In this document: one piece after another, positions 12,035-15,155 of the stretch
How positions within the stretch are numbered: position 1 is the stretch's first letter
How the letters are laid out: every line of letters begins with the position of its first letter
Assembly: GCF_030384885.1 (NCBI RefSeq)
Contig: NZ_CP128613.1
Reading direction: 5' to 3' (one strand)
Origin: Escherichia coli
GTDB lineage: Bacteria; Pseudomonadota; Gammaproteobacteria; Enterobacterales; Enterobacteriaceae
DNA length: 64,000 bases
The notes under the pieces: model-generated
Database searches by the model: none
What the model was told of the DNA's origin: nothing
The model's input: the letters and a program-made list of their open reading frames with translations, nothing else
Position numbers and translations under genes: made by a program

Positions 12035-14056
12035 TTATTTCCCTCGTTTTGCTGCCATCATCGCCTTCAGATTTGCCAGATGGTTTTGGCCTTTCTGCAT
12101 TCGTTCTTCGGCGCTGACAACTTTGCGCTCCTGTTCCCATACCAAATCATCCTGCGGCAGCTCCAGCAGGAAGCGACTCGGCTCCGGGCGCACAAGTTCG
12201 CCGTACTGACGGCGTTCTTTACACAGCGTAAAGGTCAATTCCTTCTGGGCGCGGGTGATGCCAACATAGGCCAGCCGACGCTCCTCATCAATATTGTCTT
12301 CATCGATGCTGCTCTGGTGAGGCAAAAATCCTTCTTCCATACCGACCATGTAGACATAAGGAAACTCCAGCCCTTTTGACGCGTGCAGAGTCATCAGTTG
12401 TACCTGATCCAGCTCTTCCTCGCTCTCGCCGCGCTCCATCATGTCTCGCAGAGTAAAGCGCGTCACCACCTGAGTGAGCGTCATCGGCTCATCCAGTTCA
12501 CTGCCTTCCAGCATCTCCGTCATCCAGCTAAACAGTTGGTTGACGTTCTTCATGCGCATTTCGGCAGCTTTCGGGCTGGGCGATGTTTCATACAGCCAGG
12601 ATTCATAATCCATGCCGTGGATCAGATCGCGTACTGCGGCAATCGGCTCCCGCTCCGCCAGGCGCTGGATTTCCGCTAGCCAGTGAGTGAAGCGGGTCAA
12701 TGCTTCATAACCACGTCCACTAAGCGTCTGACTCAGGCCCATATCAAAACTGGCGGTAAACATACTTTTATTGCGCGTCATCGCCCACTCGCCCAGCTTT
12801 TTCAGCGTCGCCGGGCCAATCTCTCGTTTCGGCGTGTTAACGATACGCAGAAATGCGCTGTCATCGTCCGGGTTAGTCAGCACGCGCAGATAAGCCAGCA
12901 AATCTTTGATTTCTGGGCGAGAGAAAAACGACGTGCCACCGGAAATTTTGTACGGGATGCGGTTTTGCATCAGGAATTTTTCAAACACCCGCGACTGATG
13001 GTTACCGCGATAAAGAATGGCGTAATCTTTGTACTGCGTTTTATTGACGAAGTGATGGGCGATCAATTCACCGGTGACGCGCTCGGCCTCATGTTCCTCG
13101 TTATTCGCGCTTAAAACTTTTAGCTCTGTGCCGTAACCCAGTTCAGAAAAAAGACGCTTTTCAAAGACGTGCGGGTTATTGGCGATAAGGATGTTCGCCG
13201 CTTTCAGAATACGCCCGGAAGAGCGATAGTTCTGTTCGAGTTTAATCACCTTCAACGCAGGGAAATCCTGGCTCAACAGCACCAGGTTTTGCGGACGGGC
13301 ACCGCGCCAGGAGTAGATCGACTGGTCATCATCGCCTACCACGGTAAAACGTGCGCGGCTGCCCACCAGCAGTTTCACCAGCTCATACTGACTGGTGTTG
13401 GTGTCCTGATATTCATCCACCAGCAGGTAGCGAATTTTGTTCTGCCAGCGCTCGCGGACTTCTTCATTGCGTTGCAGCAGTAACGTCGGCAATAAAATCA
13501 GATCATCGAAGTCGAGAACGTTACAGGCTTTCAGGTGTGAATCATACAGCCCATAACAATGGGCAAAAATGCGATCCCGCTCGCCCTTTGCTTCTGCCGC
13601 CGCCTGCGCCGGTGTTTTGAGATCGTTCTTCCAGTTAGAGATGGTCGAAATCAGCTGTTGCAGAAGAACTTTGTCATCTTCAATCAGCCCCTCGGTCAGT
13701 TCTTTGAGCAACGCCAGTTGATCGGTATCGTCAAACAGTGAAAAGTTCGCTTTCATCCCAAGCGCCGCATACTCCCGTTTGATGATATCCAGCCCTAATG
13801 TATGGAAGGTGGAGATCATCAGCCCGCGCGCCTCTTTACGCCCCAGCGTCTGCCCGACACGCTCTTTCATCTCGCGCGCCGCCTTATTGGTAAAGGTCAC
13901 CGCCGCGATATGTCGCGCCTGATAACCGCAACCGCGGATCAGATGGGCGATTTTATTGGTGATAACACGAGTTTTACCGGAACCCGCGCCCGCCAGCACC
14001 AGGCAGGGGCCGGTAACGAATTCGACAGCTTGTTGTTGGCCGGGGTTTAGACGCAT
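12035..14056 (-). CDS. rep: ATP-dependent DNA helicase Rep
   Basis: ORF 12035..14107; recognised start [31 protein letters not shown] (673 aa); UvrD-family motifs. Confidence 0.9.
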
Positions 14057-14272
14057 AGGTGTATTGCTCAATCTTCGAACGGGGGGAGGATTGTAGCAGA
14101 ATCGCATTTGAATGTGACCGAGTGAAAACCGCTAACCGGATGGCTGCGGATGTTTAAATCAGAGAGGGAAGGCCGAAACCGGAGTTCATCATGAATCCAT
14201 TAGACTTAGAAAATATCGGGTCGTAACGTTGTGTTATTACTTTTTCAGAGTTTACTAAGGAGAGGTTTACTC

Positions 14273-14722
14273 GTGGCGATTAATTTCAGCCCCAAGGTTG
14301 GTGAAATACTGGAATGCAACTTTGGTAACTATCCCGTTAGCCAGAATGGACAGTTCAGCACGACGTATTACGATGGCCGCATTCCACCTGAGATGATAAA
14401 AAATAGGTTGGTTGTCGTGCTCAACGGAAAAATTAATGGCAACGCATGTATCGTCGTTCCATTATCAACCACTCGCGACCATGACAAGTTAAATCGTGGA
14501 ATGCATGTTGAAATAGCCAGTAATGTTATCAATGACCTGCAATTCTTTGATCCGCAGATACGTTGGGCTAAAGCCGACCTGGTACAACAAGTCAGTCGAA
14601 ACCGATTAAACAGAGCAAGGACTTATCGGGGGTATCTTAATCAATGTTTGCCACATGAGTTGGTTGCAGACATACAGAGGGCAGTCATCAAGTCAATCAA
14701 TGCCATATCGCTCATAAATTGA
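14273..14722 (+). CDS. yifN: MazF/PemK-like toxin-fold protein YifN
   Basis: ORF 14231..14722; AAGGAGA RBS 9 nt before GTG at 14273; PemK-like segments (KVGEIL..., RLVVVL, CIVVPLSTT); position between rep and ppiC. Confidence 0.65.
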   Translation: MAINFSPKVGEILECNFGNYPVSQNGQFSTTYYDGRIPPEMIKNRLVVVLNGKINGNACIVVPLSTTRDHDKLNRGMHVEIASNVINDLQFFDPQIRWAKADLVQQVSRNRLNRARTYRGYLNQCLPHELVADIQRAVIKSINAISLIN

Positions 14723-14797
14723 CAATAAAATCACCATCCCCGATAATGACTCTGTAGCCCATAGAGGCCCTAAGTTTTCTCCCCTTGAGGGACCTGC

Positions 14798-14822
14798 GAA
14801 GCCCGGATTTTCCGGGCTTTTG
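14798..14822 (+). terminator. hairpin downstream of yifN
   Basis: GAAGCCCGG-ATTT-CCGGGCTT stem-loop followed by a short T-run. Confidence 0.45.
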
Positions 14823-14849
14823 CCATATATGTCCCCCCTCCCTGACTGA

Positions 14850-15155
<306 letters not shown>

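What the first reader, a model, noticed from the sequence alone, without database searches (positions are those of the whole stretch)
14180..14722. MazF/PemK-like toxin-fold gene (yifN) with no obvious antitoxin partner; 11-codon mini-ORF upstream
The 150-aa product carries PemK/MazF-like segments (KVGEIL, RLVVVL, CIVVPLSTT) plus a C-terminal extension of about 40 aa. Type II toxins normally sit just downstream of a small antitoxin gene. Here the upstream neighbour is the end of rep on the other strand, and the only upstream ORF is an 11-codon reading frame (14191-14226, MNPLDLENIGS) with a GGAG RBS. Either the gene is a domesticated or solitary toxin homologue, or an unconventional partner (small RNA, tiny peptide, or a trans-acting antitoxin) exists.
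Basis: partly seen in the sequence, partly recalled or inferred. Interest (0 to 1): 0.45.

Follow-up and report, generated by a model that had tools for sequence, protein, structure and literature searches.

The report
MazF-like toxin paired with sRNA
The E. coli gene yifN encodes an apparently active MazF-type RNA-cutting toxin that has no protein antidote gene but is always accompanied by a small structured RNA gene, which is probably its antidote and would make this an unrecognised kind of toxin-antitoxin pair.

Summary
Window 14273-14722 (+) is an intact 149-aa yifN. It is a PemK/MazF protein by Pfam (42 bits, cut-off 23) and by predicted fold. The MazF catalytic positions are invariant (E40/R45/S65 = EcMazF E24/R29/T52), and dN/dS is 0.03-0.08. 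No protein antitoxin is adjacent or conserved.

Two details are wrong. There is no 40-aa C-terminal extension; the extra length is internal insertions. The neighbouring end of rep is its 5' start, not its end.

The 11-codon mini-ORF is real but not conserved beyond a close relative, and its SD is lost there.

A ~75-80 nt sRNA gene sits 31 nt after the stop codon (about 14753-14825). It has a near-consensus promoter (14719-14747) and three covariation-supported hairpins. A covariance model finds it beside every YifN-clade gene examined: 59 loci, more than 20 genera, chromosomes and plasmids, in three gene arrangements. It is absent from the empty site.

The RNA was seen by northern blot in K-12 (ecr3777) but is not annotated, not in Rfam, and was never linked to yifN. 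It shows no complementarity to yifN mRNA.

Best reading: an RNA antitoxin that binds the protein (type III-like) in a new architecture. The genetic linkage is shown; toxicity and neutralisation are inferred.

The parts
14057..14272 (.). rep-yifN divergent intergenic region. It contains yifN's unmapped promoter and 5'UTR. The left edge of the ~750-bp yifN islet is at about 14088.
   Evidence: rep start lies at window 14056 by RefSeq annotation. The occupied site was aligned against the empty site of strain HH45. The consensus scan found no strong + strand promoter here.
14191..14226 (+). 11-codon mini-ORF MNPLDLENIGS, with GGAG at 14181-14184. Probably not functional.
   Evidence: Sequence. The start codon is ATG here, GTG in K-12 and TTG in Superficieibacter, where the SD is lost and 7 of 10 residues differ. 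DNA identity is 69%, lower than the CDS. There is no counterpart in other genera.
14231..14233 (+). In-frame upstream GTG, a possible alternative start giving a 163-aa isoform.
   Evidence: ORF list. Ribo-RET reported both an annotated and an upstream in-frame initiation site for yifN (10.1101/520783). Assigning that site to this codon is my inference.
14257..14265 (+). Shine-Dalgarno sequence AAGGAGAGG of yifN.
   Evidence: Sequence. Conserved in Superficieibacter and K-12.
14273..14722 (+). yifN CDS: 149 aa, PemK/MazF-family putative endoribonuclease toxin, intact in this strain.
   Evidence: Pfam PF02452, 42.4 bits. AF2 model pLDDT 78.8. Foldseek top 40 or so PDB hits are all MazF, TM up to 0.80. 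RefSeq annotation. dN/dS 0.03-0.08.
14390..14392 (+). Codon E40, equivalent to E24 of E. coli MazF.
   Evidence: hhalign alignment. Invariant in 22 family members.
14405..14407 (+). Codon R45, equivalent to catalytic R29 of E. coli MazF.
   Evidence: hhalign alignment. Invariant.
14465..14467 (+). Codon S65, equivalent to catalytic T52 of E. coli MazF and T48 of B. subtilis MazF.
   Evidence: hhalign alignments. Invariant.
14482..14482 (+). Base T in codon H70 that is deleted in K-12, making the K-12 yifN a frameshifted pseudogene.
   Evidence: Alignment of window against K-12. 'Frameshifted' / pseudogene annotation.
14719..14747 (+). Promoter of the sRNA: TTGACA-17 nt-GATAAT, matching 11 of 12 consensus positions. 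The -35 hexamer overlaps the yifN stop codon TGA.
   Evidence: Promoter scan. A promoter at the same position occurs upstream of the sRNA in 33 loci: 55% reach at least 10/12 against 1% of shuffles.
14753..14825 (+). YifN-associated small RNA (= ecr3777(d+) of Romero et al. 2014), about 75-80 nt. RNA-seq places the 3' end near 14832.
   Evidence: Supplementary Table S5 of PMC4681348 gives 3957925-3958004 (79 nt), northern-positive. Mapped onto the window through the NC_000913.3 annotation; the +1977 bp offset between U00096.2 and U00096.3 is from my own knowledge. CM hit at 14752-14824, 82.6 bits. Identity to Superficieibacter is 95.9%, against 79% for the CDS. Not in Rfam, not a tRNA, not annotated.
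14757..14768 (+). sRNA hairpin 1: GCC / CAUAGA loop / GGC.
   Evidence: Alifold consensus. 100% of cells paired, with one compensatory C-G to G-C change.
14781..14791 (+). sRNA hairpin 2: CCC / CUUGA loop / GGG. It is preceded by an A/U-rich single-stranded linker (14769-14780).
   Evidence: 100% paired. Two of three pairs show compensatory changes (C-G to U-A or G-C). The rival long-range helix is not supported.
14796..14823 (+). sRNA 3' stem-loop / intrinsic terminator: GCGAAGCCCGG - AUUUU - CCGGGCUUUUGC.
   Evidence: 8 of 12 pairs have compensatory changes, including a G-C/A-U swap inside the U-tract.
14826..14873 (.). Right edge of the islet (about 14838) and the ppiC promoter region. ppiC starts at 14874.
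   Evidence: This window lacks 46 bp that K-12 has between two CTGACAATT repeats.

Best explanation
yifN and the small RNA gene immediately downstream form a two-part toxin-antitoxin-like module.

YifN is a MazF/PemK-fold endoribonuclease with its catalytic residues intact. It has no protein antitoxin. Instead, a ~75-80 nt RNA is transcribed constitutively from its own near-consensus sigma-70 promoter. It has three short hairpins and conserved single-stranded segments: a 5' GUAGCC, an A/U-rich linker and ACCUGCRAAG.

I propose that this RNA binds the YifN dimer directly and blocks its RNA-binding and active-site groove. It would work like a type III RNA antitoxin, but it is a single-copy, non-repeat RNA encoded after the toxin gene, and the toxin is a bona fide PemK-family member.

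When transcription of the RNA stops, for example after loss of the plasmid or islet or after phage-induced shut-off, the RNA decays. YifN is then freed and cleaves cellular RNA, arresting growth. This would provide plasmid addiction or abortive infection.

Shown here: gene, fold and catalytic-residue conservation; purifying selection; the sRNA's existence, promoter and structure; strict genetic linkage; absence of any conserved protein partner; absence of antisense complementarity.

Inferred: toxicity of YifN, physical RNA-protein binding, neutralisation, RNA lability, and the biological role.
For: (1) YifN is a MazF-family protein. Pfam gives 42 bits. The AF2 model matches MazF structures with TM up to 0.80, and more weakly the type III toxin CptN, E=0.03. 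E40/R45/S65 align to EcMazF E24/R29/T52 and are invariant. dN/dS is 0.03-0.08.

(2) There is no conserved protein neighbour. Flanking genes differ completely between E. coli, Serratia, Photorhabdus and Pseudomonas plasmids. Clustering all ORFs within 900 nt in 32 loci gives only artefact ORFs lying over the sRNA DNA.

(3) Covariance models find the sRNA next to the YifN-clade gene in all 59 loci examined. These span more than 20 genera of Gamma- and Betaproteobacteria, chromosomes and plasmids including pCAR1, pFS39 and IncX/F plasmids. The models find nothing at the empty site.

(4) Linkage survives rearrangement. The sRNA is same-strand downstream in most loci, convergent in Shewanella and Limnohabitans, and divergent about 800 nt upstream in Massilia and Herbaspirillum, the latter with two copies. 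It therefore acts in trans and is not merely a 3'UTR or terminator.

(5) It is an RNA, not a coding sequence. 98.7% of cells are paired, 11 of 18 pairs show compensatory changes, and 0 of 500 shuffles reach the observed values. Several loci have stops in all six frames. Its own promoter is conserved in position. It is northern-positive in K-12.

(6) There is a TA-like asymmetry. No YifN-clade gene in any examined locus lacks the sRNA, including frameshifted or truncated copies. The sRNA does occur beside dead yifN in K-12 and alone on two plasmids.

(7) The sRNA is the most conserved part of the islet: 95.9% against 79% for the CDS and 45-61% for the flanks.

(8) There is no cognate-specific complementarity to the yifN mRNA. 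This favours protein binding over antisense action.
Against: - No experiment shows YifN is toxic or that the RNA neutralises it.
- RNA-protein binding could not be tested with these tools.
- The two 3-bp hairpins are weak for a free RNA.
- Known type III antitoxins are tandem repeats processed by their toxin. This RNA is single-copy, and no tandem repeat exists in the window.
- Co-occurrence is equally expected if YifN is a dedicated processing or chaperone protein for the sRNA.
- Short imperfect seed pairing with yifN mRNA cannot be excluded by my helix scans.
- PADLOC does not know the protein as a defence gene.
- About a quarter of E. coli genomes lack the islet and K-12 carries a dead copy, so any cellular role is dispensable.
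Confidence: 0.5

Rival explanations
1. RNA-processing or chaperone pair, not a toxin-antitoxin. YifN would be a dedicated RNA-binding protein or RNase that matures, stabilises or delivers the sRNA. The sRNA would be the effector, regulating host or plasmid targets.
For: The strict co-occurrence and trans arrangement fit this equally well. The sRNA is expressed and retained in K-12 without functional YifN, and it occurs alone on two plasmids, so it may have its own function. It carries conserved single-stranded segments that could be seeds.
Against: The catalytic triad of a toxin-type RNase is invariant. The family lies inside PemK/MazF, whose characterised members are toxins (established knowledge). 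The asymmetry, with no yifN-clade gene lacking the sRNA while the sRNA does occur without functional yifN, is the signature of dependence of the protein on the RNA, not the reverse. The module is enriched on plasmids, including 6-15 kb resistance plasmids.
Confidence: 0.2
2. Type I-like control. The sRNA would base-pair with yifN mRNA and block its translation or trigger its decay, as IstR-1 does for tisB or SymR for symE.
For: The sRNA has a C/U-rich stretch (UCUCCCCUU) partly complementary to the SD AAGGAGAG. The SD region was the best helix partner in 6 of 28 loci. There is a precedent for a type II-derived protein under antisense control (SymE/SymR, from established knowledge).
Against: Cognate duplex energies equal non-cognate and shuffled ones: -39.5, -38.6 and -37.7 kcal/mol. 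The best helices are no better than shuffles and fall at inconsistent positions in both partners. CDS-wide helix counts are 2.63 observed against 2.64 shuffled. The CCC of the C-rich stretch covaries with GGG as a hairpin stem (C-G to U-A or G-C), so it is conserved for structure and not as an anti-SD.
Confidence: 0.12
3. Solitary or domesticated toxin homologue with no dedicated partner. The sRNA would be an unrelated neighbour. YifN would be kept harmless by low expression or by a trans-acting protein antitoxin such as MazE, ChpS or PemI encoded elsewhere.
For: No strong promoter was found upstream of yifN. Solo toxins are common, and cross-neutralisation in trans has been proposed (PMC2701414).
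Against: Linkage to the sRNA in 59 of 59 loci, across unrelated contexts and hosts, cannot be coincidence. Hosts as different as Pasteurellaceae, Pseudomonas and Burkholderiales would all need a compatible trans antitoxin. Purifying selection and invariant catalytic residues argue for an active enzyme.
Confidence: 0.1
4. The 11-codon mini-ORF upstream (14191-14226) encodes a peptide antitoxin or a leader peptide that controls yifN.
For: The frame, length and stop are preserved between E. coli and Superficieibacter despite 31% nucleotide divergence. All three start codons seen (ATG, GTG, TTG) are usable. GGAG lies 6 nt upstream in this window.
Against: The SD is lost in Superficieibacter and 7 of 10 residues differ. 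An 11-codon open frame is expected by chance. The region is less conserved than the CDS and far less than the sRNA. Upstream regions in all other genera are non-homologous, with no recurrent small ORF.
Confidence: 0.03

Closest known systems
Type II MazEF / PemIK (Kid-Kis) / ChpBIK toxin-antitoxin systems
   Same: The toxin belongs to the same Pfam family (PF02452). It has the same fold and the equivalent catalytic Arg and Thr/Ser plus Glu. It occurs on plasmids and as a chromosomal islet of variable presence.
   Different: There is no MazE/PemI-type protein antitoxin gene and no two-gene operon. The protein is about 38 aa longer, through a long b1-b2 loop and an internal insert. The conserved partner is an RNA gene downstream.
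Type III toxin-antitoxin systems (ToxIN, CptIN, TenpIN, AbiQ/antiQ)
   Same: Proposed working principle: an endoribonuclease of the Kid/MazF-like fold held inactive by a dedicated, abundantly transcribed small RNA encoded next to it. The model also matches CptN weakly (E=0.03). Herbaspirillum carries two tandem copies of the RNA.
   Different: The toxin is not in the ToxN/CptN/AbiQ sequence families. The RNA is a single ~75-nt unit with three hairpins, not an array of 34-45-nt direct repeats. It lies downstream with its own promoter rather than upstream and separated by a terminator. Processing by the toxin and formation of a complex are untested.
Type I systems with trans-encoded or atypical partners (tisB/IstR-1, symE/SymR)
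   Same: A small RNA gene with its own promoter sits next to a toxin gene on the E. coli chromosome. SymE shows that type II-derived folds can come under RNA control (established knowledge).
   Different: No complementarity to the toxin mRNA was found. The toxin is a 149-aa soluble RNase fold, not a small membrane peptide.
ecr3777(d+), an uncharacterised E. coli K-12 sRNA (Romero et al. 2014; also listed from Conway et al. 2014)
   Same: It is the same RNA. The 5' end maps to window 14753, length 79 nt, northern-positive, with abundance dependent on medium.
   Different: It was previously only a transcript in a list. No structure, no family, no conservation and no link to yifN were reported. 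It is absent from Rfam 15 and from RefSeq annotation.

Membership tests
PemK/MazF toxin family (Pfam PF02452) | Profile match above the curated gathering score | tested here: met
   42.4 bits against a cut-off of 23.1, E=8.7e-11, residues 37-141 on profile positions 14-108 of 109.
PemK/MazF toxin family (Pfam PF02452) | MazF/Kid/CcdB-type SH3-like barrel fold with a C-terminal helix | tested here: met
   AF2 pLDDT 78.8, pTM 0.73. The top 40 or so Foldseek PDB hits are all MazF, TMt 0.65-0.80, E down to 2e-5.
PemK/MazF toxin family (Pfam PF02452) | Catalytic Arg and Thr/Ser (EcMazF R29, T52) plus E24 | tested here: met
   R45, S65 and E40 align to them and are invariant in 22 diverse members. 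The single-sequence hhalign scores are weak, so the equivalence rests on local motif alignment.
PemK/MazF toxin family (Pfam PF02452) | Sequence-specific endoribonuclease activity and growth inhibition | not testable with these tools
   No experiment on YifN was found in the searchable literature.
Type II toxin-antitoxin system | Adjacent, co-transcribed gene for a protein antitoxin | tested here: not met
   There is no such ORF in the window. Neighbours are unrelated between genera. ORF clustering finds no conserved partner. Only Massilia and Herbaspirillum have an upstream HTH_36/DnaD_N gene.
Type III toxin-antitoxin system | Antitoxin is an array of short tandem direct repeats upstream of the toxin gene, with an intervening terminator | tested here: not met
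   TRF finds no tandem repeat in 13950-14950. The RNA is a single unit downstream with its own promoter.
Type III toxin-antitoxin system | Toxin of the ToxN/AbiQ/CptN/TenpN families | tested here: not met
   Pfam assigns PemK_toxin only. There is only a weak structural match to CptN 4rmo, E=0.03.
Type III toxin-antitoxin system | The RNA binds and inhibits the toxin protein; the toxin processes the RNA | not testable with these tools
   Inferred from strict linkage and the lack of antisense complementarity.
Type I toxin-antitoxin system | Antitoxin RNA is complementary to the toxin mRNA | tested here: not met
   Cognate, non-cognate and shuffled duplex energies are alike. Best helices are no better than shuffles and fall at inconsistent sites. 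In the CDS, 2.63 helices observed against 2.64 shuffled.
Any Rfam 15 RNA family | Covariance-model match at the gathering score | tested here: not met
   The best match over the sRNA is rnk_pseudo at 19.9 bits against a gathering score of 55, E=1.3. ARAGORN finds no tRNA or tmRNA.
Known anti-phage defence systems (PADLOC-DB v2) | Match to a defence-protein model | tested here: not met
   0 families at E up to 10.

The most novel reading that the evidence does not exclude
A previously unrecognised class of toxin-antitoxin or abortive-infection module. A canonical MazF/PemK-family endoribonuclease would be neutralised not by a protein but by a single-copy, structured ~75-nt sRNA encoded beside it. 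The module is spread on plasmids and chromosomal islets across Gamma- and Betaproteobacteria and present in about 74% of E. coli genomes, including O157:H7. A sister clade in Alphaproteobacteria and Planctomycetes possibly uses a different RNA. K-12 would carry the relic: a dead toxin with a live antitoxin RNA.
Probability: 0.45. Interest if true: 0.85.

Novelty: new variant of a known kind. Interest (0 to 1): 0.74.

Why it matters
MazF toxins are the textbook type II toxins, and "solo" MazF/PemK genes are usually dismissed as orphans or annotation gaps.

Here the orphan has a strictly linked RNA partner. This links type II toxins to RNA antitoxins and explains how an intact MazF-like gene can sit without an antitoxin in most E. 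coli, including O157:H7. It also assigns a likely function to an unannotated E. coli sRNA.

It points to a stability or defence module on resistance and catabolic plasmids such as pFS39 (blaROB-1), pHB0503, pCAR1 and pig-associated IncX/F plasmids.

The hypothesis is directly testable with simple genetics in E. coli. It also suggests that other solitary toxins should be re-examined for flanking structured RNAs.

Tried and rejected
- NCBIfam, PADLOC and a PDB sequence search on YifN gave nothing useful.
- An Rfam scan of 13900-15000 gave only sub-threshold chance hits.
- Long-window RNAduplex between sRNA and mRNA gave spurious, non-specific duplexes, with cognate, non-cognate and shuffled energies alike. 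It was replaced by contiguous-helix scans, which were also negative.
- The MFE fold of the E. coli RNA alone suggests a long-range helix, GGCCCU/AGGGACC. It was rejected because covariation does not support it: 84.8% paired against 83.8% shuffled.
- A 46-aa minus-strand ORF (14712-14852) appears conserved in four genera. It was rejected as a by-product of sRNA DNA conservation, because other loci have stops in all frames.
- A scan of viral contigs for the sRNA core gave 69 matches, none a true sRNA by CM. YifN is also essentially absent from phage genomes.
- Eight literature searches (yifN, yifO, ecr3777, PemK + RNA antitoxin, pCAR1 + small RNA, type III + MazF) found no paper linking yifN to the sRNA. 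Pit174 of P. putida is unrelated.
- The mini-ORF was rejected as a partner.
Full report
**1. What is at the coordinates**

The window is an E. coli chromosome segment with the gene order gppA-rep-yifN-ppiC-ilvC-ilvY.

It is open from 14231 to 14722. The best start is GTG 14273, behind AAGGAGAGG (14257-14265). This gives 149 aa and is identical in extent to the RefSeq CDS "type II toxin-antitoxin system PemK/MazF family toxin".

The mini-ORF (ATG 14191 to TAA 14226, with GGAG at 14181-14184) is also present.

rep lies on the other strand, but the end next to yifN is its 5' start (14056). The two genes are therefore divergent.

**2. Is it a MazF/PemK protein, and is it likely active?**

- Pfam PF02452 matches at 42.4 bits (cut-off 23.1) over residues 37-141, which is profile positions 14-108 of 109.
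- An AlphaFold2 model built on 22 homologues (pLDDT 78.8) has the MazF topology. Its first 40 or so Foldseek hits in the PDB are all MazF toxins (TM up to 0.80). CcdB and the type III toxin CptN follow further down.
- Profile-sequence alignments place YifN E40, R45 and S65 on E. coli MazF E24, R29 and T52 (B. subtilis T48). All three are invariant in a family alignment that goes down to 45% identity.
- The extra length relative to the ~111-aa MazF is a long b1-b2 loop (residues 17-38), an insert near residues 82-96 and a long terminal helix.
- dN/dS is 0.03-0.08 within E. coli and against Superficieibacter.
- The family is small and distinct: 30 clusters at 50% identity with E<=1e-30 among 1.84 billion representatives.

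**3. Population picture**

- The ~750-bp islet (about 14088-14838) is present in 4017 of 5426 complete E. coli genomes. In the rest, rep and ppiC are about 120 bp apart.
- yifN is intact in this window, in O157:H7, in O111:H8 and in several other strains sampled.
- It is frameshifted in K-12 and in 22F46. K-12 has lost the T at window position 14482, in codon 70.
- Judging by match length, about 6 of the 19 rows sampled have the one-base-shorter, K-12-like allele.
- Homologues sit on at least 118 plasmids, half of them conjugative. Examples are pCAR1, pND6-1, p1448A-A, pig-associated IncX/F plasmids, and the small Pasteurellaceae resistance plasmids pFS39 and pHB0503.
- Phage genomes essentially lack it.

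**4. No protein partner**

- Flanking genes are unrelated between genera. They are rep/ppiC in Escherichia and Superficieibacter, a MetQ-like lipoprotein and a MerR/TipAS regulator in Serratia, and an unknown gene and mutS in Photorhabdus. On Pseudomonas plasmids they are strings of small unknown genes.
- I clustered all ORFs of at least 30 aa within 900 nt of yifN in 32 loci. The only cross-genus "families" were ORFs that lie on the conserved sRNA DNA.
- The mini-ORF keeps its frame in Superficieibacter, but it changes start codon (ATG/GTG/TTG), loses its SD and changes 7 of 10 residues. It has no counterpart elsewhere. Its DNA is less conserved (69%) than the CDS (79%).

**5. The conserved partner is an RNA gene**

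*Promoter and transcript.*
- The yifN stop codon lies inside the -35 hexamer of a near-consensus promoter, TTGACA-17-GATAAT at 14719-14747, matching 11 of 12 positions.
- From about 14753 a ~75-80 nt transcript runs to a stem-loop terminator at 14796-14823.
- This is the K-12 transcript ecr3777(d+) of Romero et al. 2014. It is 79 nt, at U00096.2 coordinates 3957925-3958004, northern-positive, with abundance dependent on medium, and is also listed from Conway 2014.
- Through the NC_000913.3 annotation and the +1977 bp offset between genome versions (my own knowledge), its 5' end falls at window 14753. That is 31 nt after the stop codon and 6 nt after the -10 box.
- It is not annotated in MG1655, nor in any RefSeq E. 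coli genome row I saw. It matches no Rfam family and is not a tRNA or tmRNA.

*Conservation beside yifN.*
- The same element lies after yifN homologues in Serratia, Photorhabdus and Pseudomonas, although everything else differs.
- I built a covariance model from 13 sequences and a second from 35.
- Together they find the RNA next to the YifN-clade gene in every one of the 59 loci examined, spanning more than 20 genera of Gamma- and Betaproteobacteria, on chromosomes and plasmids.
- They find nothing at the empty site, and nothing elsewhere in the 64-kb window apart from a weak reverse-strand match (12.7 bits) to the palindromic terminator stem of the sRNA itself.

*Arrangement.*
- Usually the sRNA is on the same strand, 30-90 nt downstream.
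- It is convergent in Shewanella and Limnohabitans.
- It is divergent and about 800 nt upstream in Massilia and Herbaspirillum, the latter with two copies.

*Promoter conservation.* A sigma-70 promoter is conserved in position. 55% of loci reach at least 10/12 matches, against 1% of shuffles.

*Structure.*
- The model is hairpin 1 (GCC/GGC), an A/U-rich linker, hairpin 2 (CCC/GGG), the segment ACCUGCRAAG, then a 12-bp terminal stem.
- 98.7% of cells are paired, 11 of 18 pairs have compensatory changes, and 0 of 500 shuffles reach the observed values.
- The alignment is model-fitted, which inflates these numbers somewhat. The slid-partner controls nevertheless collapse.
- A rival long-range helix predicted for the E. 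coli sequence alone is not supported.
- Several loci carry stops in all six frames across the element, so it is not coding.
- Between E. coli and Superficieibacter it is the best conserved part of the islet, at 95.9%.

**6. How the pair most likely works**

- Antisense control is not supported. Cognate sRNA-mRNA duplex energies equal non-cognate and shuffled ones. The best contiguous helices are no better than shuffles and fall at inconsistent places. The CDS holds no excess of complementary helices. The C-rich stretch that resembles an anti-SD covaries as a hairpin stem.
- What remains is a trans-acting RNA whose presence is obligatory wherever a YifN-clade gene is found. The reverse does not hold. 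K-12 keeps and expresses the RNA beside a dead gene. A Yersinia ruckeri plasmid and a P. aeruginosa megaplasmid carry the RNA alone.
- That asymmetry, the strong constitutive promoter, the plasmid enrichment and the retained catalytic residues fit an RNA antitoxin that binds and blocks the nuclease. This is the working principle of type III systems, whose toxins share this fold.
- The membership tests for type III fail, however. There is no repeat array, the gene order is different, and the toxin family is different.
- I therefore describe it as working like type III without being a member.
- Toxicity, binding, neutralisation and RNA lability are inferences.
- The main rival is that YifN is a dedicated processing or chaperone protein for an effector sRNA.

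**7. Novelty**

yifN is an annotated gene and a COG ("YifN, PemK superfamily"). The RNA has been seen as a transcript. The following were not found in Rfam, in RefSeq annotation, or in eight full-text literature searches: the conserved structure, the family-wide strict linkage, and the reading as a PemK-family toxin with an RNA antitoxin. Papers outside the searchable library cannot be excluded.

**8. Verdict**

The mini-ORF and the C-terminal extension are not supported.

| Claim | Confidence |
|---|---|
| yifN and the sRNA form a functional module | about 0.85 |
| The RNA is the antitoxin, acting by direct binding | about 0.5 |

Noticed in passing
L053, L054, L056, L057, L061, L063 (about 10-150 nt after the gene at ~2500-2920): A sister clade of shorter (~137-146 aa) PemK-like proteins occurs in Alphaproteobacteria, a Planctomycete and a gammaproteobacterial MAG. 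It has a short b1-b2 loop and no obvious protein antitoxin. A different conserved structured element follows it directly: hairpin, then YUNUAAGAC, then a second hairpin, a longer stem and a terminator. The YifN sRNA model gives only marginal hits there (17 bits).
   Followed up: partly
L066 2501-2580 (Yersinia ruckeri plasmid) and L067 2501-2577 (P. aeruginosa p3860P): Orphan copies of the sRNA with no yifN detectable by tblastn. One sits next to a plasmid replication-initiator gene. The other has its own TTGACA...TAGAGT promoter. They could be anti-addiction copies or a sign of an independent function.
   Followed up: partly
L045 1482-1562 and 1639-1721 (- strand); L042 1636-1716 (- strand); ORFs L045 1959-2489 and L042 1906-2481: In Herbaspirillum and Massilia the sRNA is divergent and about 800 nt upstream, in two tandem copies in Herbaspirillum. 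An HTH_36/DnaD_N winged-helix gene directly precedes a longer YifN (214-227 aa) with a low-complexity tail.
   Followed up: partly
L003 ~2552-2600 (E. coli HH45, empty rep-ppiC site): In a strain lacking the yifN islet, the rep-ppiC spacer carries a homopolymer of about 33 C. It is flanked by G-runs, exactly where the islet sits in other strains.
   Followed up: no
window 14826-14860 versus L002 ~2300-2360: K-12 has 46 bp between two CTGAC(T)GACAATT / CTGACAATT direct repeats, downstream of the sRNA, that this window lacks. It looks like a repeat-mediated deletion or a target duplication at the right edge of the islet.
   Followed up: no
window 14273-14722: Synonymous divergence between this window's yifN allele and the common E. 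coli allele is high (dS 0.17-0.19). The 841-bp query that includes the islet is >=99% identical in only 539 genomes and 95-99% identical in 3477. This suggests two old allele classes or recombination from outside.
   Followed up: partly
window 14231-14275: Ribo-RET (Meydan et al. preprint) reports both the annotated start and an upstream in-frame start for yifN. GTG 14231 is the obvious candidate and would add 14 residues.
   Followed up: no
L144 1501-1944 (pFS39) and L145 156-599 (pHB0503): In 7.5-15 kb Pasteurellaceae resistance plasmids carrying blaROB-1, with ermT on pFS39 and sul2 on pHB0503, the yifN homologue starts 2 nt after the primase/replication gene and is followed by the sRNA. 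It is the only candidate stability module seen in the ~3.4 kb of pFS39 examined.
   Followed up: partly
window 14712-14852 (- strand): A 46-aa ORF antisense to the sRNA appears conserved in Escherichia, Superficieibacter, Pantoea and a Legionellaceae MAG. This is an artefact of the conserved RNA DNA and could mislead gene callers.
   Followed up: yes
window 14747-14829: The weak full-length Rfam alignment to the Pseudomonas rnk leader (RF01772, 19.9 bits against a gathering score of 55) coincides exactly with the sRNA. It is probably terminator-driven chance.
   Followed up: no
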